Assembly: GCA_022117465.1 (NCBI GenBank)
Contig: JAHCGZ010000005.1
Span: 7,544-71,543, forward strand
Direction of reading: 5' to 3'
DNA from: Candidatus Nitrosopumilus limneticus
GTDB lineage: Archaea > Thermoproteota > Nitrososphaeria > Nitrososphaerales > Nitrosopumilaceae
DNA length: 64,000 nt
Below are positions 1,561 through 62,930 of this stretch, in pieces; position 1 is the stretch's first letter; every line of letters begins with the position of its first letter. A program made the position numbers and the translations under genes. The notes under the pieces were generated by a model. It saw only the letters and a program-made list of their open reading frames with translations, was not told the DNA's origin and made no database searches.

Positions 1561-1902
1561 TTATTCTAAAATTTCTTTGTAATCTTGTATTTCCATCATT
1601 AAAGATAAATCATTTTGTAAAGGATTATGACAGTGTGCAAAATTAAGATTGTCTAAAAGTGAATCTATCAAAGAACATTTATTTTTTGTATATTGATAAT
1701 ACCTATCAAAAGCCATATCAAATGAATAACATTTTTCAATTTGATTCCAATACTCCCCCCTTATTGCAACATATTCTACTAAAAAATCATGTATGGGTGA
1801 TTCAACAATAGGTGCCAGATTAAATCGTAAAAGTTTTATCAAAATTGTTTCAAACTCTTTATCCAGATTTGCATCATAGATTTGTGTGTAAATACTAGTC
1901 AT
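1561..1902 (-). CDS. Hypothetical protein
   Basis: 113-aa ORF with normal composition; no family recognised. Confidence 0.6.
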   Translation of the reverse strand: MTSIYTQIYDANLDKEFETILIKLLRFNLAPIVESPIHDFLVEYVAIRGEYWNQIEKCYSFDMAFDRYYQYTKNKCSLIDSLLDNLNFAHCHNPLQNDLSLMMEIQDYKEILE

Positions 1903-2121
1903 ACATTATCACGTAAATACCATGACTTCGTATTTTTCAAATTTTTCTTTTAATTTTTCTTTCTTTCTATCTTTTGTATTTTTCACGATTTATCGATGTG
2001 ATAATGGAATTTAATGTAGATTGTATAAAATGTAAACAAATTTTTAGGATAATAAAAAAAACTACATAATTTCTGAACGTTTGTTAAAAATACGAGTTTA
2101 GAAAAAAGAAGAGTTTGGAAA

Positions 2122-2385
2122 TTACTTCCAAGCATACCATAGACCAAGACTAGTACCAATTTGGTATTTTTCTTTTGCACATTGGTCTAGCATTTTATAC
2201 ATGCTTTTGCTATCAGTAAAGTCACCCATAATGAACACTTTGTAATTTGTGCCTTCGTATTGAGTGCCTATACATTTTACTTTGGTTGCTTGTGCATGAT
2301 AACTTGCATAGCTTTCAGGAATTGCTACTGCAAAAATCATTAAACCAAACATTAGGGAGATTCCTAATATTGTTATTTTATTCAT
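2122..2385 (-). CDS. Small secreted hypothetical protein
   Basis: Signal peptide MNKITILGISLMFGLMIFAVAIPESYA; two Cys. Confidence 0.7.
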   Translation of the reverse strand: MNKITILGISLMFGLMIFAVAIPESYASYHAQATKVKCIGTQYEGTNYKVFIMGDFTDSKSMYKMLDQCAKEKYQIGTSLGLWYAWK

Positions 2386-2407
2386 TATCTCAATTCTGTT
2401 TTTTATG

Positions 2408-2440
2408 ACTTAAGCATTATTCACTAATGTGAGTTTAGAA
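2408..2440 (-). promoter_or_regulatory. 33-bp element duplicated at 3304-3336; contains a TATA-like GCTTAAGT and the boundary motif
   Basis: 32/33 identity between copies; TTAAG lies about 23-29 nt upstream of the next start codon. Confidence 0.75.
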
Positions 2441-2459
2441 GTTAATTATTATTTTTATT

Positions 2460-3281
2460 TTAATCTAACCCTTTTGCACCAGTAAGGTTTGCTCTTCTAA
2501 GGTCTGCATCACTAAGGTTTGCACCAGTAAGGTCTGCACCAGTAAGGTCTGCATCTCTAAGGTTTGCACCAGTAAGGTTTGCACCAGTAAGGTCTGCATA
2601 ACCAAGATATGCACCACTAAGGTTTGCACCAATAAGGTCTGCATCTCTAAGGTTTGCACCAGTAAGGTCTGCACCAGTAAGGTCTGCATAACCAAGATTT
2701 GCACCACCAAGGTTTACATCTCTAAGGTTTACACCACCAAGGTTTACACCACCAAGGTTTACACCACCAAGGTTTACACCACCAAGGTCTGCACCTCTAA
2801 GTTTTACACCACCAAGGTCTGCACCTCTAAGGTCTGCACCACTAAGGTCTGCACCACTAAGGTTTACACCACTAAGGTTTGAATTTTGAAAGTTTGCACC
2901 ACTAAGTTTTGCACCACTAAGGTCTTTTCCATGTAAATCCATTTCATGAAAATCACAATTTGTCAGTAATGCACCTTTATTCAAACTCGCACATTTGCCT
3001 GTAGGCTTTGTAGATTGTGTACTTTCTTTTGGTGTTGTAGATTGTGTACTAGAAGTTTTTAAATTAGTATTTTCCGTTTTTAATTTAGCATTTTCATTTT
3101 TTAATTTATAATTCTCTTTTTTTATTTTAGCACTTTCAGAAAGTAAATCCTTGATCTTTTTTTCAAGTGATTTGATTTTATCCATTAATTTTTGCTCAGA
3201 TTCTGGACTTGCTGAAATTGAAGTAAAAGATACGCTTAGAAGAATAACTGATAGAATAGTAAATAATATGATTTTATTCAA
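2460..3281 (-). CDS. Secreted pentapeptide-repeat protein with an N-terminal coiled coil
   Basis: TTG start, signal peptide, K/E-rich coil, about 30 A(D/N)LxG repeats encoded by 15-bp DNA repeats. Confidence 0.9.
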   Translation of the reverse strand: MNKIILFTILSVILLSVSFTSISASPESEQKLMDKIKSLEKKIKDLLSESAKIKKENYKLKNENAKLKTENTNLKTSSTQSTTPKESTQSTKPTGKCASLNKGALLTNCDFHEMDLHGKDLSGAKLSGANFQNSNLSGVNLSGADLSGADLRGADLGGVKLRGADLGGVNLGGVNLGGVNLGGVNLRDVNLGGANLGYADLTGADLTGANLRDADLIGANLSGAYLGYADLTGANLTGANLRDADLTGADLTGANLSDADLRRANLTGAKGLD

Positions 3282-3303
3282 TAATTCTATAAATTTTGTA
3301 TTA

Positions 3304-3336
3304 ACTTAAGCATTATTCATTAATGTGAGTTTAGAA
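3304..3336 (-). promoter_or_regulatory. Second copy of the 33-bp promoter-like element
   Basis: Matches 2408-2440 at 32/33 positions. Confidence 0.75.
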
Positions 3337-3337
3337 T

Positions 3338-3577
3338 CTACTCTTTGTGCTTTGCATTATCTTTTAGCGTCTTATCTAGAGGCACAGTAATTGTTCTATC
3401 TGAGCCTTTACAATAATTTTTTCCTTTGAAATGCTTGTGGATTTTGACTTTAGCCATCATAACACTATCTATTCCATAGTTTCCATGATGATCTGTAATT
3501 TCTTGACTAACAATATGACAAGTTTCAAAAACATTACACCATTTACACATAATTTTTATTTTTTTCTCACTAGTCAT
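3338..3577 (-). CDS. Small putative Zn-binding protein (CxWC...HKHF...CKGSD); frame is open to 3661
   Basis: Paralogous to 6357-6569; start at MTSEKK chosen by alignment to that paralog. Confidence 0.65.
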   Translation of the reverse strand: MTSEKKIKIMCKWCNVFETCHIVSQEITDHHGNYGIDSVMMAKVKIHKHFKGKNYCKGSDRTITVPLDKTLKDNAKHKE

Positions 3578-3678
3578 AAAGTCTCTTTCAGAATTTGATC
3601 TTTCTGTTTTAGCAATATCATAATTAATTTTATGATAAATTTTGCTTAAAAGCCTAAGCATTTTTTACAATTATGAAT

Positions 3679-4590
3679 TTAGAATCTCTTTCTAATTCCA
3701 ACAATTACAACAGCTGGAATTCCAATATACATTGCCAAATTTAATGCAATAATTGAAAGTCCTAATCCTAAAACTTCAGACTCTGAATTTGCATTTTCCA
3801 TAATTGATAGTGTTGTAATCATTGGTGTAATTGCAAACTTTACTGCTTCTTTGAAAATTGGTGATTCTCTTTCGTAATCAGCTATTGTTGGTGAAAATGT
3901 ATAGTAAATGTCATTAAATGTTGCCATAAATGCAGAACCTGATTCTGTTTGCAATAATGAATTATCTCTAATTTCTCTAAGTAGTTGAACTTGTGGTGCA
4001 AGTTCAGAACCATATGTTGCTGTTGCAATTAGACAACCGCCGCCATTCTCTTCAGACTCTTGAGTAGCAACAACTGTTTCTTCTACAACTTGTTCCTCAA
4101 CAACTGTTTCTTCTACAACTTGTTCTTCAACAACTGTTTCCTCTGCAACTTCACTATGAGTTTCCATTTTCTCATGAGTTTTTTCTGTTGCCTCTTGTAC
4201 TATGATTGTTCCTTGCATCCAAGGATGAATCATATCAAAATAAGGAAATTCACCTACATTTTCTGGTATCCATTGAAAAGAACTACCTGGTTCAAGCATT
4301 CCAGAATTAAATTCTACACCAATAACATCATCTGAAGGTACACCTGATGAAAAAGTATGTGATACACTTTCAGTATTTGAAAATATTATAACACTGCCAA
4401 CATAAACTGTTACAGGATTTGGACTGTAACATCCTTCTTCTGTAAGTTCACAACCTGAATCTGAACCTGAACCAGATATTGGAGTGATTGTAATCTCATG
4501 ATGATCTGCAAAAGCATTAGGAGCAATTGAAATCATGGATATTGATATGGTAAATAATAGAAAGATTGAGCTTATTGCTTTAGTCTTCAT
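3679..4590 (-). CDS. Cupredoxin (plastocyanin-like) domain protein with CFI-box-CTERM anchor; the Cys ligand is replaced by Asp
   Basis: Signal peptide, SHTF...YFDMIHPWM loop, EETVV linker repeats, GGGCLIATATYGSELAPQVQLLRE and a C-terminal TM helix. Confidence 0.88.
   Translation of the reverse strand: MKTKAISSIFLLFTISISMISIAPNAFADHHEITITPISGSGSDSGCELTEEGCYSPNPVTVYVGSVIIFSNTESVSHTFSSGVPSDDVIGVEFNSGMLEPGSSFQWIPENVGEFPYFDMIHPWMQGTIIVQEATEKTHEKMETHSEVAEETVVEEQVVEETVVEEQVVEETVVATQESEENGGGCLIATATYGSELAPQVQLLREIRDNSLLQTESGSAFMATFNDIYYTFSPTIADYERESPIFKEAVKFAITPMITTLSIMENANSESEVLGLGLSIIALNLAMYIGIPAVVIVGIRKRF
4071..4150 (-). repeat. 30-bp tandem repeat encoding an EETVVEEQVV acidic linker
   Basis: caactgtttc at 4071, 4101 and 4131. 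Confidence 0.85.
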
Positions 4591-4689
4591 TAATTCACTT
4601 GAAAATGCTATACATAAAAACGTCTCTAAAATAGTAAATTAATTTTTAATAACGGATTTGTGATATTTATGATTTGATCAAATGCGAGT

Positions 4690-6267
4690 TTAGAATCTCT
4701 TTTTAATTCCAACAATTACAACAGCTGGAACACCTAGATACATTCCAAGATTTAGTATGATTAATGAAATTCCAATACTCAATACTTCAGACTCTGAATT
4801 TGCATTTTCCATTAAAGATAATGTAGAAATCATTGGTGTAATTGCAAGCTTTACTGCCTCTTTGAATACAGGATTTTCTCTTTCGTAATCAGCTATTGTT
4901 GGTGAAAATGTATAGTAGAAATCATTGAATGTTTTCATGAATTGTATACCTGATTCTGTGTTTAGTAATTGGTTATCTCTAATTTCTCGAAGTAGTTGTA
5001 CTTGTGGTGCTAATTCACTACCATAAGTTGCAGTTGCAATTAGACAACCACCTCCTTCTACAGATGTAGTAATTTCTGATTGTATCTCCTCAGACTCTGA
5101 TGCAATAACCTCTGTCTCTAAAGATTTTTCAGCAGCAGCTATTGGTAAAATTCTATAAATTACACTTTCACCATGTGATACCAAGTAAAGAAATCCGTCT
5201 GGACCTCTTTCAATATCTGTAATACATCTAAAACCTGTTCCAAGCATAATTTCATCTGTAGAATCATTTTCATTAACTAAATTATCTTGCAAATCTGGAT
5301 TTGAAAATACAAATCCATCTCTACTTTGATTTAATTGAAATTTATACAAATGTCCATTATTACAATCACCTACAAAAATAGAATTATCATAATCTCTAGT
5401 TTCTTTAAAATTTCCAAAACTTATTGCTGCAGGTGCAACAACCTCTTGCCAACTAAATTTTGGATCCGCATATTGGTAATCCTCGTATACTGGTAGACTG
5501 GCAATTTCTGATTGAGTTGCAGGTCCCATTATCATCTCCCATCCACTGTTAAATTTATCTTGAATTAAATTAATTTCATCAAAATCATCATCCCCATTTT
5601 CTGTATCCCATAAATTTCCATTAACTGGATCTATTGCAAGACCAAAACTATTTCTAATTCCCATTGCATGATATGGTCCTTCAGGGTCTACACGTAAAAT
5701 TACACTAGTATCCATGTAATCTTTCGTTCCTGGTGGATAAAGCTTCTCAAGGGATTGATTTTGAAGTGGACCATATTTTCCAGTATCACCAACTACTGCA
5801 TACACTTGTCCATCTAAACCAGTAACCATAGCTCCACTGTTATGATATTCATTAGATGGTAACTCTTTAATCAAAACAGGATTTACTAATTTTTCACCAT
5901 TCCAATCATACTTGTAAATTCTATTACCTAATTGTTCTTTTTCTGAATTAATTTCTGTAAAATAAAGATAAACTGTAGACCCAACACTTGTAATACCTAG
6001 CAAACCACTTTCTCTAATTGGATTAACATCTATTTGTAAAACTGGGTCTGTTTGTATTACACCATCACGAATTAATTTAACATTGCCTAATTTTTCTACA
6101 AGTAAGATATCATCACCAACAAATGTCATTGTAGTGTATCCCCAACCAATTTCACCTGCATATACTTCAATAATCAAATTATCATCATACAATACAGGTT
6201 GAGCAAATGCACTTGGAAGCATAACTCCAAGAATTGCAACTATTGCAATGACAAATAGAGAATTCAA
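4690..6267 (-). CDS. PQQ-dependent glucose/sorbosone dehydrogenase-like beta-propeller with CFI-box-CTERM anchor
   Basis: ESGLLGI, HNSG, GIRNSFGLAIDP, WDTENG and DEINLI motifs; CFI-box C-terminus. Confidence 0.9.
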   Translation of the reverse strand: MNSLFVIAIVAILGVMLPSAFAQPVLYDDNLIIEVYAGEIGWGYTTMTFVGDDILLVEKLGNVKLIRDGVIQTDPVLQIDVNPIRESGLLGITSVGSTVYLYFTEINSEKEQLGNRIYKYDWNGEKLVNPVLIKELPSNEYHNSGAMVTGLDGQVYAVVGDTGKYGPLQNQSLEKLYPPGTKDYMDTSVILRVDPEGPYHAMGIRNSFGLAIDPVNGNLWDTENGDDDFDEINLIQDKFNSGWEMIMGPATQSEIASLPVYEDYQYADPKFSWQEVVAPAAISFGNFKETRDYDNSIFVGDCNNGHLYKFQLNQSRDGFVFSNPDLQDNLVNENDSTDEIMLGTGFRCITDIERGPDGFLYLVSHGESVIYRILPIAAAEKSLETEVIASESEEIQSEITTSVEGGGCLIATATYGSELAPQVQLLREIRDNQLLNTESGIQFMKTFNDFYYTFSPTIADYERENPVFKEAVKLAITPMISTLSLMENANSESEVLSIGISLIILNLGMYLGVPAVVIVGIKKRF

Positions 6268-7402: not shown

Positions 7403-7436
7403 CTAATAGTTTTAATGATAATTTTTTGATTTGATA

Positions 7437-7474
7437 ATCAATTTTTTGATTGTTTTTTTATTTTATGAAAATTT
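7437..7474 (+). repeat. 38-bp T-rich direct repeat, copy 1, terminator- and TATA-like
   Basis: 37/38 identical to 7592-7629. Confidence 0.85.
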
Positions 7475-7489
7475 AGAGATACAAGTCAA

Positions 7490-7561
7490 GCCAAGATTAG
7501 AAAGGATCATGAAAAGAAGGGGGATTTGAACCAAACTGGAATTCATGTTAATCTAGGCATA
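7490..7561 (+). ncRNA. Candidate small hairpin RNA 1
   Basis: GCCAAGATTAG/TTAATCTAGGC outer stem and CATGAA/TTCATG inner stem; TTTTAT 29 nt upstream; no ORF. Confidence 0.35.
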
Positions 7562-7591
7562 AATTTTGTATAAACCAAAATTACTGTAATT

Positions 7592-7716: not shown

Positions 7717-7793
7717 AAATTCTAAAAATAATTACATGTAGTGCCTACATTTTATAGGAAGATTGATAGATTAACCAAATGTGAGTATAGAAA

Positions 7794-31350: not shown

Positions 31351-31424
31351 TTCTAAATTGACTATAAGTTCATACCATTTTAGGGCAAGGCATAAATTCT
31401 AATTAAAACTATACTCCAAAGGAT

Positions 31425-36682: not shown

Positions 36683-36784
36683 TGATCGTTTGTTCCTAAA
36701 ATAATAAAATATATAAAAAAAATTGTTCCTAGTTAATTCGAATTTACAACAAATACTTAATTACTCTGAGAAGAGACGAGGCTT

Positions 36785-38185: not shown

Positions 38186-38269
38186 AATTAAAACATATAG
38201 CTCACTTTCCGTCATTAAACTATTCTTAAAATGAGTAACTCACGCATGAAATTTAGAATCTAAATTGTC

Positions 38270-38473
38270 TTATCCCCACCACCAAAACCTTCCAGTTGTT
38301 TTGATCAGGGATTTGATACCTGCAATATTTTTAGGATTCAATTCAATTTCTTTATGTTCTGCTAAAACGTGTTCTTTAACCATTAACATTAATTCTTCTT
38401 CATTATTTGTTGTTGATGATGCTGACCAACTACAATCTTTGCCTGCATCTTTGCAACTAATTGATTTAGTCAT
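38270..38473 (-). CDS. DUF1059 family small metal-binding protein
   Basis: SISCKDAGKDC...EEELM..VKEH...H. Confidence 0.75.
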   Translation of the reverse strand: MTKSISCKDAGKDCSWSASSTTNNEEELMLMVKEHVLAEHKEIELNPKNIAGIKSLIKTTGRFWWWG

Positions 38474-38517
38474 AATCTTTTAACTTTTTATTTGAACTTA
38501 AGCGTATGGTTTAGAAT

Positions 38518-38658
38518 CTAACTGCATTTTGGACATTGACAAGATACGGTTCTAAGGTCTTCTTCATCTTGAAACCACATACTATGACTTGAATTGCTAT
38601 GAATATCTAATTTACAAGAACTGCAAATAAATTCTAAATTAAGAAATAGTAATTTTAT
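38518..38658 (-). pseudogene. Zn-binding micro-ORF (CSSC...CQCPKC) with no canonical in-frame start
   Basis: Translated by hand; a TTG at 38662 would join the frame if one T were removed. Confidence 0.35.
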
Positions 38659-60134: not shown

Positions 60135-60162
60135 TTATTTCTATATTCGAATTTAGAAATAT
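60135..60162. repeat. 28-bp palindromic element, copy 1 (26/28)
   Basis: TTATTTCTATATTCGAATTTAGAAATAT. Confidence 0.85.
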
Positions 60163-60202
60163 TGATTTGATAGACGTTAAACATTTCACCAAAAGAAATA
60201 AT

Positions 60203-60230
60203 TTATTTCAATATTCGAATTTAGAAATAT
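60203..60230. repeat. 28-bp palindromic element, copy 2 (25/28)
   Basis: TTATTTCAATATTCGAATTTAGAAATAT; 68 bp from copy 1. Confidence 0.85.
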
Positions 60231-60317
60231 TGATCGGTTGTATGTAATTGGTGTACTCAATTAGACAACATAGATCTAATACATGATCGCTTAAGAACAA
60301 CATGCAGGAGATTTACA

Positions 60318-60566
60318 TTGGTTAGAACTAGAAGAGCCAATAGATATTGCATTGATTGTAGTGCAAGATTGGTGTATTATCCCAGGTTGTCAAACCCAAA
60401 AGCACCAAATGAACACAGAGTACTAGTGTACGCATGCCCAGATTGTACAGATGATTTTGAAAAACCAAAAATGTTCTCAATTAGACGTAATCAAGTAGAG
60501 GATCCACTTGAAACAGTAGAAGTAGAAATTACACAGTTACAAAAAAAAGTAGCTTTAGCAAAATAA
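60318..60566 (+). CDS. Zn-ribbon protein
   Basis: CIDC...CPDC; TTG start preceded by AGGAG. Confidence 0.7.
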   Translation: MVRTRRANRYCIDCSARLVYYPRLSNPKAPNEHRVLVYACPDCTDDFEKPKMFSIRRNQVEDPLETVEVEITQLQKKVALAK

Positions 60567-60570
60567 TTCC

Positions 60571-60798
60571 ATGGCCAGTTCAGAAAAAACAAGAAGTAAT
60601 TATTGGTATTTACTTCCTATATTTTTTTCAATAATCGGCGGAATTGTCGGATATTTAATTATTCAAAAAGATGATCCTCGTAAAGCAAAAAATTGTATCT
60701 ACATTGGAATTATAATGATAATAATTGGCATAATTTTTAATATCATGATATTAAATTTGGATGTTGTAAGTAGTCCAGGTTTTAACGTCAATGTATGA
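60571..60798 (+). CDS. Small 2-TM membrane protein
   Basis: WYLLPIFFSIIGGIVGY...KAKNCIYIG. Confidence 0.7.
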   Translation: MASSEKTRSNYWYLLPIFFSIIGGIVGYLIIQKDDPRKAKNCIYIGIIMIIIGIIFNIMILNLDVVSSPGFNVNV

Positions 60799-60832
60799 TT
60801 GAATTAACATATCTGCGGGCACTAGATTTACA

Positions 60833-60860
60833 ATATTTCTAAATTCGAATTTAGAAATAT
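60833..60860. repeat. 28-bp palindromic element, copy 3 (perfect palindrome)
   Basis: ATATTTCTAAATTCGAATTTAGAAATAT equals its own reverse complement. Confidence 0.9.
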
Positions 60861-60925
60861 CTCTAATTAATACTAGTGATCAAGTAGATTTAGAATCATA
60901 TAGAAGTAATTTTAAAAATCAAATT

Positions 60926-61375
60926 ATGAGCACATCAAGAATGAGAGATAATGTAGAAAGATGGCTAATTCATGAAAGTTTACCATTTGATCAAGTAAAA
61001 AATGAAGAAAATTCGTTTCAAATTTTAGTAAAGCATGCAGGGCGGTATGGAATACCTATAGAAATTTTTGAACCAAAAGCCCAATTAGGAATTCTAGTAT
61101 TAGGAGTCAAAATAGAAATGAAGAATAATCAAATTATAAGATATAGAGAGTTTAACCAGGATGAAAAAGCTAAATTTGCAAATAAAGTGTCAGATTTTTG
61201 CAACTCTATTGAAGCTATTAGTAAAATAATCACCGAAGATGGAAAGCAGAAAATTGCAATTTATGTTGTATTAGATGATAAAGAAAACATTAACCAGCAA
61301 TCAATGTTTAATGCAATAGACAGCATATCAGAAAAACATGAAAAAACATCTAGATTTTTACTAAAAACATTTTAA
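60926..61375 (+). CDS. DUF2299-like protein
   Basis: DNVERWLIHE; family resemblance recalled, not searched. Confidence 0.6.
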   Translation: MSTSRMRDNVERWLIHESLPFDQVKNEENSFQILVKHAGRYGIPIEIFEPKAQLGILVLGVKIEMKNNQIIRYREFNQDEKAKFANKVSDFCNSIEAISKIITEDGKQKIAIYVVLDDKENINQQSMFNAIDSISEKHEKTSRFLLKTF

Positions 61376-61578
61376 AAAATTAAAAAATGATAGATTAAAA
61401 CTTCAAAGACATGAACACGAGTAAAATATGTAGGGGTAAACAAGCGATTTTTGTTTGAAAAAATCAAAACACCAATAAAAAAATATTACAATGTCAAATT
61501 TTTGAAAAGTAACTAATCCAAATTATAAAAAAATTAGCATAAATTAAGAAATAACTAAAAAAAGAGTAATTTTTGAAA

Positions 61579-61754
61579 TTATGCCTAGATGTTAACCCCC
61601 CACTGCAAATAATGGAGTTTGAGCATATGGTGAAATTTTGGAAAACAAGCATTTGGATGGGGGGTTGTACAGTTATGCCTAGATACAAAAGGCAAGGGTA
61701 ATTCCACCAAGGTATCACAGCAAAAGAGGGGCAATCTTTCATAATTAGGCATAA
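61579..61754 (-). ncRNA. Candidate tandem hairpin RNA(s) ending in ATCTAGGCATAA boxes; strand inferred
   Basis: TTATGCCTAGAT at 61579 and 61673; inverted TAGGCATAA at 61746; AACCCCCCA/TGGGGGGTT stem. Confidence 0.35.
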
Positions 61755-61926
61755 AAGCTAAACCCCCAAAAATTAGACAAATTTAACGAGAAAAATTGGA
61801 ATTGAAAGAGAATTGATAGACAAAATCAGTTATTAAAAAAATAAGATGTAAGATTTTTGCAACAAATACCCCCCTATTTTGACATCAGTTTTAATAAATA
61901 ATGAATAAAAATCAAAAATTTGAATC

Positions 61927-62457
61927 ATGAAATTACGTATCAACTATATATCAAAAAAAAATGTAAATTTTATGGTTCGTTTGGGCATAGTACTAGTAAT
62001 TGGTGTAATAATTGGTTCAATGATACTTGCAAATTTCATGTATATGCAATATCAAACAAAACTCATTGAAACAAATGCAGGAGAACCTGTAATGGTAGGA
62101 CCAGTGGAATACATAATAACATTTGACGGTACGCATGAAGGAAGTAAAGATGTAAAACCAGAAAACATATTTGTGATGATTGGAATTGTTGCAAAAAATA
62201 CAGGTGATGAAAAAACACTGCTATCAGGGGGACAATTTTACTTAATTGATGAAAAAAATCAAAAACATGAAGCAGTTTTTGGTGAATTTACACCAAAAGA
62301 TCTACTTTTACAAGAATTAGAATCAAACAAGTCAATTGAAGTTACAACACAATTTGATATTCCGTTTGATGAAGATGCAAATTATAAAATTATAATCAGA
62401 CCACAAAAAGAACAATCAACTGTAGATACAGCATCAATTTGTTTAATAAATTGCTGA
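61927..62457 (+). CDS. DUF4352-like Ig-fold membrane-anchored protein
   Basis: N-terminal TM helix; KNTGDE...QFYLIDEKNQK...FDIP. Confidence 0.7.
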   Translation: MKLRINYISKKNVNFMVRLGIVLVIGVIIGSMILANFMYMQYQTKLIETNAGEPVMVGPVEYIITFDGTHEGSKDVKPENIFVMIGIVAKNTGDEKTLLSGGQFYLIDEKNQKHEAVFGEFTPKDLLLQELESNKSIEVTTQFDIPFDEDANYKIIIRPQKEQSTVDTASICLINC

Positions 62458-62558
62458 TCGATAAATTGTAAAAATCAAAAAAGTGTCAAATTTAATTATT
62501 ACTAGCGTAGTATTGTGTGACTTTTACCATATAACACTTACAATTTTAGAAAAAAGTC

Positions 62559-62858
62559 ATGGCAACATCTAAAGCCAAAAGATCTGAGGCAGCTAAGAAA
62601 GCAGCAAGAACTCGAAAGAGAAATGCAGCAGCAAAAGCAGCAGCAGCATCAAAAGCAGCAGTAAGTCGTAGAAGAAAGGCAGCAAGAAGTCGTAGTAAAT
62701 CTGCAGGTAAAAAAGCAGCTCCAAGAAGAAAGGTAGCAGCAAAACGCAGAGCCGCTCCAAAACGAAAATCTGCAGCAAAAAAAACAGCTCCAAGAAGAAA
62801 GGCAGCAGCAAAACGCAGAGCCGCTCCAAAGAGAAAGGCAGCTAAACGTAAACGTTAG
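62559..62858 (+). CDS. Highly basic K/R/A-rich histone H1/Hc1-like protein
   Basis: Almost no acidic residues; 69-bp internal duplication. Confidence 0.75.
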   Translation: MATSKAKRSEAAKKAARTRKRNAAAKAAAASKAAVSRRRKAARSRSKSAGKKAAPRRKVAAKRRAAPKRKSAAKKTAPRRKAAAKRRAAPKRKAAKRKR

Positions 62859-62902
62859 TCTGTCTATTCACCTTTTTTCTATTTTACTATACTAAATTTA
62901 TT

Positions 62903-62930
62903 ATATTTCTAAATTCGAATTTAGAAACAT
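62903..62930. repeat. 28-bp palindromic element, copy 4 (27/28)
   Basis: ATATTTCTAAATTCGAATTTAGAAACAT between convergent genes. Confidence 0.9.

What the first reader, a model, noticed from the sequence alone, without database searches (positions are those of the whole stretch)
2089..4695. Cassette-like gene array with the same 15-bp motif at five consecutive gene 3' ends
In gene orientation the motif reads TTCTAAACTCGCATT (4681-4695, overlapping TAA), TTCTAAATTCATAAT (3670-3684, overlapping TAA), TTCTAAACTCACATT (3322-3336, 1 nt after TAG), TTCTAAACTCACATT (2426-2440) and TTCTAAACTCGTATT (2089-2103). It follows five unrelated genes. The consensus TTCTAAAYTCRNATT equals the left arm, spacer and start of the right arm of the 28-bp palindrome at 60-63 kb. 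Shorter TTCTAAA(C/T) copies also directly follow 3' ends at 31351, 38252-38258, 38510-38516 and 40900, and follow the hairpin at 7720. A conserved site overlapping the stop codon of each cargo gene recalls integron attC inverse cores (RYYYAAC), but the sequence differs and no integrase is in the window. Inference: either an undescribed site-specific gene-capture system or an undescribed sequence-specific 3'-end or termination signal.
Basis: partly seen in the sequence, partly recalled or inferred. Interest (0 to 1): 0.72.

Follow-up and report, generated by a model that had tools for sequence, protein, structure and literature searches.

The report
Boundary motif framing swappable small genes
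The repeated 15-base motif is real. It is the local form of an undescribed short DNA signal found across this group of marine ammonia-oxidising archaea; it sits on or just after the stop codon of small accessory genes, and genes are gained, lost and exchanged between strains and species at the repeated spacers that carry it.

Summary
The five copies are confirmed and far exceed chance. They are not a private oddity of this array. The extended motif TTAGATTCTAAAYTC, whose core TTAGA-T-TCTAA is a near-palindrome, occurs about 390 times in 151 genomes of the genus. A reversed control pattern occurs about 20 times. Copy number is patchy (0-19 per genome) and copies cluster among small accessory genes.

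The motif lies on or just behind stop codons, including between convergent genes. It is often followed by a T-run or by a TATA-like box (CAATAYGCTTAAGT) 22-30 nt before the next start codon. Motif, box and leader form a constant 48-62-nt spacer between unrelated ORFs.

Same-species metagenome contigs show genes present or absent between repeated spacers (a pentapeptide-repeat gene, a small membrane protein). A helicase or Mrr insert brings its own spacer copy. The largest content swaps, however, cross over inside the multi-copy CFI-box-CTERM coding tails, and other island versions lack the motif.

One unit in the window (38.25-38.52 kb) is 93-99% identical across species whose core genes are about 80% identical. 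This genome has no tyrosine or serine recombinase, and the spacers do not fold like attC.

Best reading: a 3'-end/boundary signal inside a portable terminator-promoter spacer, shuffled by host homologous recombination. The function is inferred, not shown.

The parts
4681..4698 (-). Motif copy 1, AGATTCTAAACTCGCATT. TTC-TAA are the last codon and stop codon of the GSDH/CFI-box-CTERM gene.
4690..6267 (-). Glucose/sorbosone-dehydrogenase-like secreted protein with a CFI-box-CTERM tail. The tail is a recombination substrate between strains.
3670..3687 (-). Motif copy 2, AGATTCTAAATTCATAAT, overlapping the stop codon of the cupredoxin/CFI-box-CTERM gene. It is followed at the standard spacing by AATGCTTAGG.
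3679..4590 (-). Cupredoxin-like protein with a CFI-box-CTERM tail. In other strains the same tail and flank follow 506-, 549- and 1855-aa proteins.
3281..3339 (-). Spacer A: motif copy 3 (TAG-A-TTCTAAACTCACATT), then AATGAATAATGCTTAAGT, then 22 nt up to the TTG start of the pentapeptide gene. In contig L066 the same spacer, up to the start codon, precedes a different gene.
3338..3577 (-). Small Cys/His (Zn-ribbon-like) protein gene of 79 aa by comparison with orthologues (the longest ORF runs to 3661). It is 80-89% conserved in the genus. The motif follows its stop codon in several species although the downstream gene differs.
2460..3281 (-). Signal peptide + coiled coil + pentapeptide-repeat protein. 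It is present or absent between the two 33-nt repeats among strains, and its repeat number also varies.
2385..2440 (-). Spacer B: motif copy 4 (TTCTAAACTCACATT), then AGTGAATAATGCTTAAGT, then 22 nt up to the ATG of the 87-aa gene. As in spacer A, the motif starts 55 nt before the start codon.
2122..2385 (-). Gene for an 87-aa secreted protein of unknown function.
2089..2103 (-). Motif copy 5, TTCTAAACTCGTATT, 21 nt after the stop codon of the 87-aa gene. It is preceded by the degenerate copy TTCCAAACTC and followed by a decayed box (AACAAACGTTCAG).
1561..1902 (-). 113-aa gene at the aspS edge of the island. In other strains a helicase or an Mrr-type insert with a fresh spacer copy follows its stop codon.
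38496..38521 (-). Canonical genus-type spacer start: TTAGATTCTAAAC-C-ATACGCTTAAGT. The TAG inside it ends a 20-codon Cys-rich mini-ORF.
38270..38473 (-). 67-aa gene (MTKSISCKDAGKDCSW...). With its spacer it is 93-99% identical to copies in six other species.
38249..38263 (-). Canonical motif TTAGATTCTAAATTT, 6 nt after the stop codon of the 67-aa gene and facing a convergent gene.
60135..62930 (.). Four copies of the palindrome ATRTTTCTAAAYTCGAATTTAGAAAYAT (60135-60162, 60203-60230, 60833-60860, 62903-62930), made of two inverted TTCTAAAYTC halves. They lie after tRNA-Asn, after a small membrane-protein gene and between convergent genes. Locus and sequence are conserved across the genus. Related by sequence only; a shared function is not shown.

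Best explanation
The 15-mer is the local variant of a genus-wide boundary motif, TTAGATTCTAAAYTC. This motif is the first box of a constant 48-62-nt intergenic spacer. The spacer consists of the motif, 0-19 nt, a TATA-like box CAATAYGCTTAAGT, and about 22-30 nt up to the next start codon. It separates self-contained, mostly small accessory genes.

Shown: the motif sits on or within about 35 nt after the stop codon of the upstream gene. It often supplies that stop codon itself (TAG or TAA). Because its core is nearly palindromic, two convergent genes can both end in one copy.

Inferred: the motif, often with a following T-run, is the 3'-end (termination or insulation) signal of each unit. The box is the promoter of the next, essentially leaderless, mRNA.

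Inferred: because the same spacer recurs between unrelated ORFs, the host's own homologous recombination between spacer copies inserts, deletes and swaps genes. The same happens between the about 370-nt CFI-box-CTERM coding tails, two of which end in the motif. The result is a cassette-like, strain-variable array between aspS and gatCAB without a dedicated recombinase. Whole units also pass between species.
For: Motif real and local. Genus-wide excess: about 390 hits against about 20 for the reversed control in 151 genomes, patchy at 0-19 per genome and clustered. TT precedes the 13-mer in 58 of 72 distinct instances, although the search did not require it.

Gene ends: an ORF of at least 45 aa stops at the motif in 35% of instances (forward strand) and 20% (reverse strand), against 6-7% at shifted control positions. 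Among 32 instances with a called ORF on both sides, the upstream gene is co-oriented in 24, and 12 of these are convergent pairs with no downstream promoter to serve. Two convergent stop codons lie inside one motif copy.

TTTT lies within 9 nt downstream in 33% of instances against 8% background. TATA-type words peak 26-35 nt before start codons in this genome, so the GCTTAAGT box sits at the TATA position of leaderless mRNAs.

Recombination: the pentapeptide gene is absent in many contigs, and the junction lies inside the 33-nt repeat. A small membrane-protein gene lies between spacer copies in L066 but not in L040. The helicase and Mrr inserts carry their own spacer copy. Crossovers inside CFI tails are visible as a switch from 100% identity with this gene's own tail to 100% identity with another paralogue's tail.

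Transfer between species: the 67-aa unit is 93-99% identical across species whose gatAB genes are 78-80% identical. Homology starts in the motif or box and ends at stop+2. No PF00589 or PF00239 recombinase was found in this genome.
Against: Termination is therefore inferred from position only. The motif itself is not T-rich, and two thirds of copies lack a T-run; most of the five copies studied here lack one too. Within this genome the signal beyond the array is weak: TTCTAAA at +3 to +16 after stop codons occurs 31 times against about 15 expected, and there is no overall strand bias. Most genes clearly terminate without the motif. Six of 32 classifiable instances lie between divergent genes. 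ORF calling for very small genes was crude. In the 67-aa unit the conserved block carries the motif at its 5' end, together with the promoter box, which would equally suit a promoter-side role. The junctions of the helicase insert are not inside the motif.
Confidence: 0.45

Rival explanations
1. The motif is an operator or upstream activating site. A dimeric DNA-binding protein recognises the TTAGA-N-TCTAA core and controls the GCTTAAGT-type promoter just downstream. The same protein may bind the conserved TTCTAAAYTC palindromes at 60-63 kb. The motif lies behind stop codons only because intergenic regions are short.
For: The core is a near-palindrome. A GCTTAAG-like box follows in 23 of 72 instances, at discrete spacings of 16 or 29 nt, and 25 nt in this array. 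In the array the motif starts 55-56 nt before four different start codons. In the horizontally exchanged 67-aa unit the motif travels at the 5' side with the promoter. The related palindrome sits a constant ~69 nt before the DUF2299 gene in most (6 of 9) genomes compared.
Against: Twelve of 32 classifiable copies face a convergent gene and two thirds have no promoter box. The distance to the upstream stop codon is tight (median about 4 nt), whereas the distance to the next start codon is broad (4-109 nt). Motif-to-box spacing is not fixed. The unit persists without the motif in G105, G016 and G034.
Confidence: 0.2
2. The motif is the crossover site of a dedicated site-specific gene-capture system (integron-like in logic), run by an unrecognised recombinase or one supplied in trans by mobile elements.
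For: Arrays of co-oriented units are each bounded by the motif. Genes are present or absent precisely between motif-bearing repeats. One unit has moved between species into different contexts, with homology ending in the motif. Copy number is patchy and lineage-specific. Several copies lie inside an integrase-bearing element in G104.
Against: No tyrosine or serine recombinase is present in this 95%-complete genome, and none appears in 20 population contigs around the island. There is no attC-like fold (z-scores -1.1 to +0.8). The repeats flanking the indels are 33-75 nt long and imperfect, as expected for homologous recombination. The main swaps cross over in CFI tails. Other island versions have no motif. 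The junctions of the helicase insert lie outside the motif.
Confidence: 0.12
3. The motif is an RNA-level signal. The arrays are transcribed as long precursors and a sequence-specific endoribonuclease or RNA-binding protein cuts or binds at UUAGAUUCUAAACUC, which separates or stabilises the cistrons.
For: Constant short repeats separate variable units in co-oriented arrays. The motif is oriented with the upstream gene in 24 of 32 cases. There is no stable DNA or RNA hairpin, so recognition would be by sequence.
Against: Each unit appears to have its own promoter box. The near-palindrome and the use by convergent genes point to double-stranded DNA. No RNA data are available.
Confidence: 0.08
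4. The motif has no function of its own. The copies are relics of duplication, namely the 3' end of one CFI-box tail subfamily (..AGA TTC TAA) plus its flank, copied around by recombination.
For: Two of the five copies, and a third elsewhere on the contig, are CFI tail ends. AGATTCTAA reads Arg-Phe-stop. CFI tails end in the same motif in other species as well (G074 and G114). The array's spacers are visibly homologous, at different stages of decay.
Against: Among 72 instances from other species the upstream 30 nt are unrelated and only a few are CFI tails, yet the 15 nt are sharply conserved while both flanks are not. A 20-fold excess persists across species whose core genes are about 80% identical. 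In the population the motif is invariant while the adjacent box is polymorphic.
Confidence: 0.08

Closest known systems
Integron gene-cassette arrays (attC sites, IntI)
   Same: Co-oriented, unrelated accessory genes each carry a conserved short site at the 3' end. Units are gained and lost between strains and the arrays are hypervariable. TTAGAT resembles the TTRRRY part of the integron core site.
   Different: There is no integrase, no attI and no attC-type folded inverted repeat. The site here is a constant 15-mer with a promoter box, not a variable 57-141-nt attC. Units carry their own promoter. Copies are dispersed in several clusters per genome and also occur between convergent genes.
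Archaeal intrinsic terminators (oligo-T tracts; Term-seq studies of Methanosarcina, Sulfolobus and Haloferax, cited from general knowledge)
   Same: Position directly behind stop codons, frequent T4-5 run right after the motif, no hairpin required, and use between convergent genes.
   Different: A specific, nearly invariant 15-nt sequence that is not T-rich. It is used by only a few to about 19 genes per genome, mostly small accessory genes. Two thirds of copies lack the T-run.
Bacterial REP/BIME extragenic palindromes
   Same: Short, partly palindromic repeats found after genes and between convergent genes. Copy number varies between lineages. They can act as recombination patches and as 3'-end elements.
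   Different: The motif is much shorter (15 nt, 5-bp arms, no stable hairpin) and has far fewer copies. It frequently overlaps stop codons and is coupled to a promoter box. A RAYT-type transposase was not searched for. This is an archaeon.
Flexible (additive/replacement) genomic islands of marine picoplankton, e.g. Prochlorococcus and SAR11 islands
   Same: A fixed chromosomal slot (aspS to gatCAB) holds different gene sets in co-occurring strains. The contents include surface proteins and defence-type genes (Mrr nuclease, Schlafen-like helicase).
   Different: Here the crossover substrates can be read directly: repeated 33-62-nt spacers and about 370-nt sorting-signal coding tails. No tRNA or integrase is involved at this slot.

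Membership tests
Integron cassette array | Adjacent IntI-type tyrosine recombinase | tested here: not met
   PF00589 has no match in the whole genome, while all 14 control genomes match. None appears among the called genes of 20 population contigs.
Integron cassette array | attC: imperfect inverted repeats (R''-L''...L'-R') that fold as single-stranded DNA | tested here: not met
   Both strands of four spacers were folded as ssDNA. Z-scores were -1.1 to +0.8 against shuffles.
Integron cassette array | Core sites GTTRRRY / RYYYAAC at the cassette boundaries | tested here: inconclusive
   TTAGAT fits TTRRRY, but the preceding base is G in only 11 of 72 instances. TCTAAAC differs from RYYYAAC at two positions (read directly from the sequence).
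Integron cassette array | Strain-to-strain gain and loss of single units exactly at the site | tested here: inconclusive
   The pentapeptide and small-membrane-protein units are bounded by repeated spacers. The helicase insert and the CFI-tail swaps have junctions elsewhere.
Archaeal oligo-T terminator | Run of T (at least 4-5) at the 3' end of the transcription unit | tested here: inconclusive
   TTTT lies within 9 nt after the motif in 24 of 72 instances against 8.4% background. It is absent from most of the five copies in this array.
Archaeal oligo-T terminator | Mapped transcript 3' ends at the site | not testable with these tools
Palindromic transcription-factor operator | Dyad symmetry and a fixed position relative to the TATA box or start site | tested here: inconclusive
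   The core TTAGA-T-TCTAA is symmetric. Spacing to the box falls in classes of 16, 25 and 29 nt. Twelve of 32 copies have no co-oriented downstream gene.
REP-like extragenic palindrome | Hairpin-forming imperfect palindrome of 20-40 nt, many copies, associated RAYT transposase | tested here: not met
   The arms are 5 bp and there is no stable fold. There are 0-19 copies per genome. A RAYT transposase was not searched for.
CFI-box-CTERM proteins (the two genes whose stop codons lie in copies 1 and 2) | Match to NCBIfam NF041770 above the curated cut-off | tested here: met
   78.1 and 79.8 bits against a cut-off of 40. About 10 paralogous tails are present in the genome.

The most novel reading that the evidence does not exclude
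These ammonia-oxidising archaea may possess a so far undescribed cassette system that works the opposite way round from integrons. A constant 50-60-nt 'expression frame' (boundary motif + special promoter box + leader) is repeated along arrays, and the ORFs between the frames are the exchangeable part. Exchange would occur by very short-homology recombination, or by an unrecognised motif-specific enzyme. Units would move between strains and between species whose core genes are only about 80% identical. The conserved TTCTAAAYTC palindromes next to tRNA-Asn would be the chromosomal docking sites of the same factor.
Probability: 0.2. Interest if true: 0.85.

Novelty: new variant of a known kind. 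Interest (0 to 1): 0.62.

Why it matters
Ammonia-oxidising archaea are among the most abundant microbes in the ocean, yet almost nothing is known about their cis-regulatory signals or about how their flexible genome islands turn over. This work gives a concrete 15-nt signal, about 20-fold over-represented, that can be tested directly by Term-seq, protein pull-down or in vitro transcription. It also shows at base resolution two kinds of repeated sequence at which co-occurring strains exchange surface-protein and defence genes: spacer modules and the coding tails for a protein-sorting signal. If the motif is a sequence-specific terminator or insulator, it would be unusual for archaea. If it is a recombination site, it would be a new route of gene capture in a lineage in which this genome has no detectable tyrosine or serine recombinase.

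Tried and rejected
- Chance: rejected by shuffles and by the reversed-pattern control.
- General terminator for all genes: rejected. TTCTAAA has no strand bias in intergenic DNA and only about 20 genes in this genome have the motif near the stop codon.
- attC-like or hairpin structure: the folds are no better than shuffles.
- Known RNA families: only the two tRNAs matched in the window.
- Dedicated recombinase: PF00589 and PF00239 are absent from the genome.
- Viral origin: a scan of viral contigs gave only single hits per contig, consistent with chance for an AT-rich 15-mer.
- Casposon ends or target: the published target ATTGATAAAGAGT and the TIR end TTCTA (PMC8464041) share only AAAGAG(T) and TTCTA with this locus. 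The geometry does not fit and there are no TIRs.
- Literature: no archaeal paper contains the motif. A Red Sea metatranscriptome paper gave no usable promoter or terminator information.
- The pattern scan of the species-representative genome collection found nothing beyond this genome.
- The box GCTTAAGT is not a general promoter word in this genome.
- The hits at 7778-7792 (abutting the gatC start codon on the other strand) and at 36735 were judged chance matches.

Full report
**1. The observation**

The window is contig C5:7544-71543 of a 1.19-Mb, 30% G+C archaeal genome. Its gene content points to a Nitrosopumilus-type ammonia oxidiser: CFI-box-CTERM proteins, TATA words about 30 nt before start codons (so largely leaderless mRNAs), and an archaeal ribosomal-protein operon. 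This is my inference, because the tools give no organism names.

All five copies are at the stated coordinates on the minus strand, in the orientation of the genes they follow. Shuffles expect 0.83 matches at up to 1 mismatch, and 14 are seen. Eight of the 14 belong to the palindromes at 60-63 kb, five to the array, and the remaining hit at 7778 together with the near-match at 36735 is at chance level. In the whole genome the exact pattern occurs 9 times, 8 of them in this window.

The genes, in order of transcription on the minus strand:
- a GSDH-type dehydrogenase with a CFI-box-CTERM tail (4690-6267);
- a cupredoxin-like protein with the same kind of tail (3679-4590);
- a small Cys/His protein (3338-3577);
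- a signal-peptide/coiled-coil/pentapeptide-repeat protein (2460-3281, TTG start);
- an 87-aa secreted protein (2122-2385);
- a 113-aa protein (1561-1902).

**2. Two local reasons why the copies look alike**

(a) Copies 1 and 2 are the last codon, stop codon and first flank bases of two paralogous CFI-box tails (...AAG AGA TTC TAA AYTC). A third paralogue at the end of the contig has the same ending, whereas about seven other tails in the genome end differently.

(b) Copies 3 and 4 are part of a 33-nt repeat, TTCTAAACTCACATTA[A/G]TGAATAATGCTTAAGT. In both cases the start codon of the next gene lies exactly 55 nt after the first base of the motif. Copy 2 has the same layout (motif, 15 nt, GCTTAGG). 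Copies 1 and 5 are decayed versions of it.

TATA-type words (TTTATA, TTATAT, TTTAAA, and also TTAAGT) peak 26-35 nt before start codons in this genome. The GCTTAAGT box therefore sits where the TATA box of a leaderless mRNA should be.

**3. Is the motif a general signal in this genome?**

No. TTCTAAA occurs 1318 times and shows no strand bias in tandem, divergent or convergent intergenic DNA. Close to stop codons there is a modest excess: 31 copies at +3 to +16, against about 15 expected from farther positions or from the opposite strand. Most of the apparent enrichment of the longer word comes from this array and from the TAA contained in the motif. Only about 20 genes carry it.

**4.

A pattern scan of metagenomes and two exact-protein look-ups returned 24 contigs of the same species (97-100% protein identity). 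The interval between aspS and the AhpD-like gene/gatCAB is a hypervariable island. Close relatives hold an NRAMP-like transporter there instead.

Three kinds of junction are seen.

(i) Inside CFI tails. In L041, L043, L045, L048 and L042 the GSDH gene is 100% identical to the window gene up to a point 200-350 nt before the stop codon. From there on in L041, L043 and L045 it is 100% identical to a different CFI paralogue of this genome (C1:118756, C3:5218 or C5:93322), including that paralogue's downstream flank. Likewise, the gene before the small Cys/His gene can be a 303-, 506-, 549- or 1855-aa protein, each ending with the identical tail, motif copy 2 and intergenic region. The about 370-nt tails are thus portable homology that swaps everything downstream. 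The alternative island contents reached in this way carry no motif at their gene ends.

(ii) Between repeated spacers. The pentapeptide gene is absent from many contigs. The junction is a hybrid of the two 33-nt repeats: the upstream flank of copy 3 joined to the downstream polymorphisms of copy 4. In L066 a small membrane-protein gene lies between spacer copies that are adjacent in L040. There the same spacer as before the pentapeptide gene, up to and including the TTG start codon, drives a different ORF.

(iii) Inserts that bring a spacer. After the stop codon of the 113-aa gene, some strains carry a Schlafen-like helicase and others an Mrr-type nuclease plus further genes. Both inserts begin with 18 nt plus a fresh spacer copy: TTCTAAACTCGTATTTGTAAATAATGCTTATTG or TTCTAAACTCACATTTGTGACAAATGCTTAAGT. 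In the second case a TTG start codon follows 56 nt after the first base of the motif. The junctions themselves are not inside the motif.

L066 has six motif copies in a row, all behind co-oriented genes. In the population the motif is invariant, whereas the box is polymorphic (GCTTAAG, GCTTTAG, GTTTAAG, GCT-AAG).

**5. The motif is genus-wide**

Orthologues of the small Cys/His gene in other species are again followed by (A/T)TTCTAAAYT, although the downstream gene differs.

Searching for the slightly longer word AGATTCTAAAYTC in 151 genomes of the genus gave about 390 hits, against about 20 for the reversed control. Copy number ranges from 0 to 19 per genome, often in same-strand clusters 170-450 nt apart.

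In 72 distinct instances from other species the two bases before the word are TT in 58 cases, and the flanks beyond are unrelated. The full motif is therefore TTAGATTCTAAAYTC, whose core TTAGA-T-TCTAA is an 11-nt near-palindrome.

Position relative to genes:
- ORFs of at least 45 aa stop at the motif in 35% (same strand) and 20% (opposite strand) of instances, against 6-7% at positions shifted by 150 nt.
- Among 32 instances with called ORFs on both sides, 12 are tandem, 12 convergent, 6 divergent and 2 reverse-tandem. The distance to the upstream stop codon is tight (about -10 to +37 nt) and the distance to the next start codon is broad.
- The stop codon is very often the TAG or TAA of the motif itself. 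In one case two convergent genes both stop inside one copy.
- TTTT follows within 9 nt in 33% of instances, against 8% background.
- A GCTTAAG-like box follows in 23 of 72 instances at two discrete spacings, 16 and 29 nt. The array in this window uses 25 nt.

Several copies lie in an element of genome G104 that carries a tyrosine integrase and a PD-(D/E)XK nuclease.

**6. A canonical unit in this window, and transfer between species**

At 38.25-38.52 kb the minus strand reads, in order: a 20-codon Cys-rich mini-ORF ending in the TAG of TTAGATTCTAAAC; one base; ATACGCTTAAGT; 22 nt; the ATG of a 67-aa gene; TAA; 6 nt; TTAGATTCTAAATTT. The unit faces a convergent gene.

This unit is 99, 98, 96, 96, 96 and 93% identical to copies in G105, G048, G114, G116, G115 and G104. 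The gatAB genes of the genomes checked from this set and of other genomes of the genus (G104, G115, G072, G090, G042, G074) are 78-80% identical to the window, and the closest relatives carry the 67-aa gene at about 82%. Homology starts in the motif or box and ends two bases after the stop codon. The contexts differ: behind a CFI tail in G114, and inside arrays with nearly identical 60-nt spacers on both sides in G116 and G115. This is best read as recent horizontal exchange of a spacer-framed unit.

**7. What it most likely is**

Shown:
- a sharply delimited, over-represented, partly palindromic 15-mer at the ends of small accessory genes;
- its frequent fusion to a TATA-position box in a constant 48-62-nt spacer;
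- strain-level gain and loss of genes between spacer copies;
- crossovers in CFI tails;
- transfer of one unit between species;
- absence of tyrosine and serine recombinases from this genome and of any attC-like fold.

Inferred:
- the motif is the 3'-end signal of each unit, acting by termination, by a protein roadblock or as an insulator;
- the box is the promoter of the next unit;
- ordinary homologous recombination on these short repeats produces the cassette-like behaviour.

I put this at about 45%. The rival readings and my odds are: a promoter-side operator (about 20%), a dedicated recombination site (about 12%), an RNA processing site (about 8%), and a functionless duplication relic (about 8%). 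The remainder is left unassigned.

**8. Relation to the 28-bp palindrome**

ATRTTTCTAAAYTCGAATTTAGAAAYAT consists of two inverted TTCTAAAYTC halves. It is conserved in sequence and position in every genome of the genus examined, including genomes with no copy of the 13-mer. It lies after tRNA-Asn, before the DUF2299 gene (a constant ~69 nt before the ATG in 6 of the 9 genomes compared, 57-68 nt in the others), and between the convergent basic-protein and PNPOx-like genes. All these positions are also behind 3' ends. This is compatible with a two-way version of the same signal or with a shared binding protein, but nothing here tests that.

**9. Limits**

ORFs were called by a simple longest-ORF rule, which is unreliable below about 40 aa. 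Instances were collected by exact match, so variation inside the motif is under-sampled. Genome handles are anonymous, so I cannot say which cultured strains carry many copies.

Noticed in passing
window 3679-4060 and 4690-5070; genome C1:118756, C3:5218, C5:93322 and others: The about 370-nt coding tails for the CFI-box-CTERM sorting signal are present in about 10 paralogues (80-88% identical). In same-species contigs they are mosaic: a gene switches from 100% identity with its own tail to 100% identity with another paralogue's tail plus that paralogue's flank. The sorting-signal tail acts as portable homology that exchanges surface-protein bodies and downstream genes.
   Followed up: yes
window 60135-62930: The 26-28-bp palindrome ATRTTTCTAAAYTCGAATTTAGAAAYAT is conserved in sequence and in synteny across the genus (tRNA-Asn, Zn-finger + membrane protein, DUF2299, DUF4352, Ala/Lys-rich basic protein, PNPOx-like). 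The stretch between the second and third copy varies from 2 to 5 kb among species.
   Followed up: partly
window 61560-61800: An ORF-poor, G+C-richer stretch with long-range CCCCCC/GGGGGG pairing lies between the DUF2299 and DUF4352 genes. It is a possible structured RNA; no Rfam match at gathering score.
   Followed up: no
window 7425-7574: A non-coding stretch upstream of gatC is 88-89% identical in other species, which is more conserved than the neighbouring genes. It overlaps the tandem promoter-plus-hairpin units flagged by another first-stage note.
   Followed up: no
window 38270-38473: The 67-aa gene (MTKSISCKDAGKDCSW...) with its spacer is 93-99% identical in six species whose gatAB genes, where checked (G104, G115), are 78-80% identical, which suggests recent horizontal exchange.
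   Followed up: yes
window 38524-38586 (minus strand); L066:866-925: A 20-codon Cys-rich mini-ORF (MWFQDEEDLRTVSCQCPKCS) ends in the TAG of the motif. A homologous mini-ORF sits in the variable island of another strain.
   Followed up: partly
whole genome G000: No tyrosine recombinase (PF00589) or serine recombinase (PF00239) was detected in this 95%-complete genome.
   Followed up: partly
window 2460-3281 versus L038:102-419: The pentapeptide-repeat protein varies from 105 to 273 aa among strains through changes in repeat number, with a different low-complexity linker.
   Followed up: partly
L059, L060, L061, L068 and L066, L067 (same species), after the 113-aa gene: Defence-type genes (a Schlafen-like helicase of 654 aa, or an Mrr-type nuclease of 478 aa with further genes) occupy the slot between the 113-aa gene and aspS in some strains. 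In this genome the two genes abut.
   Followed up: partly
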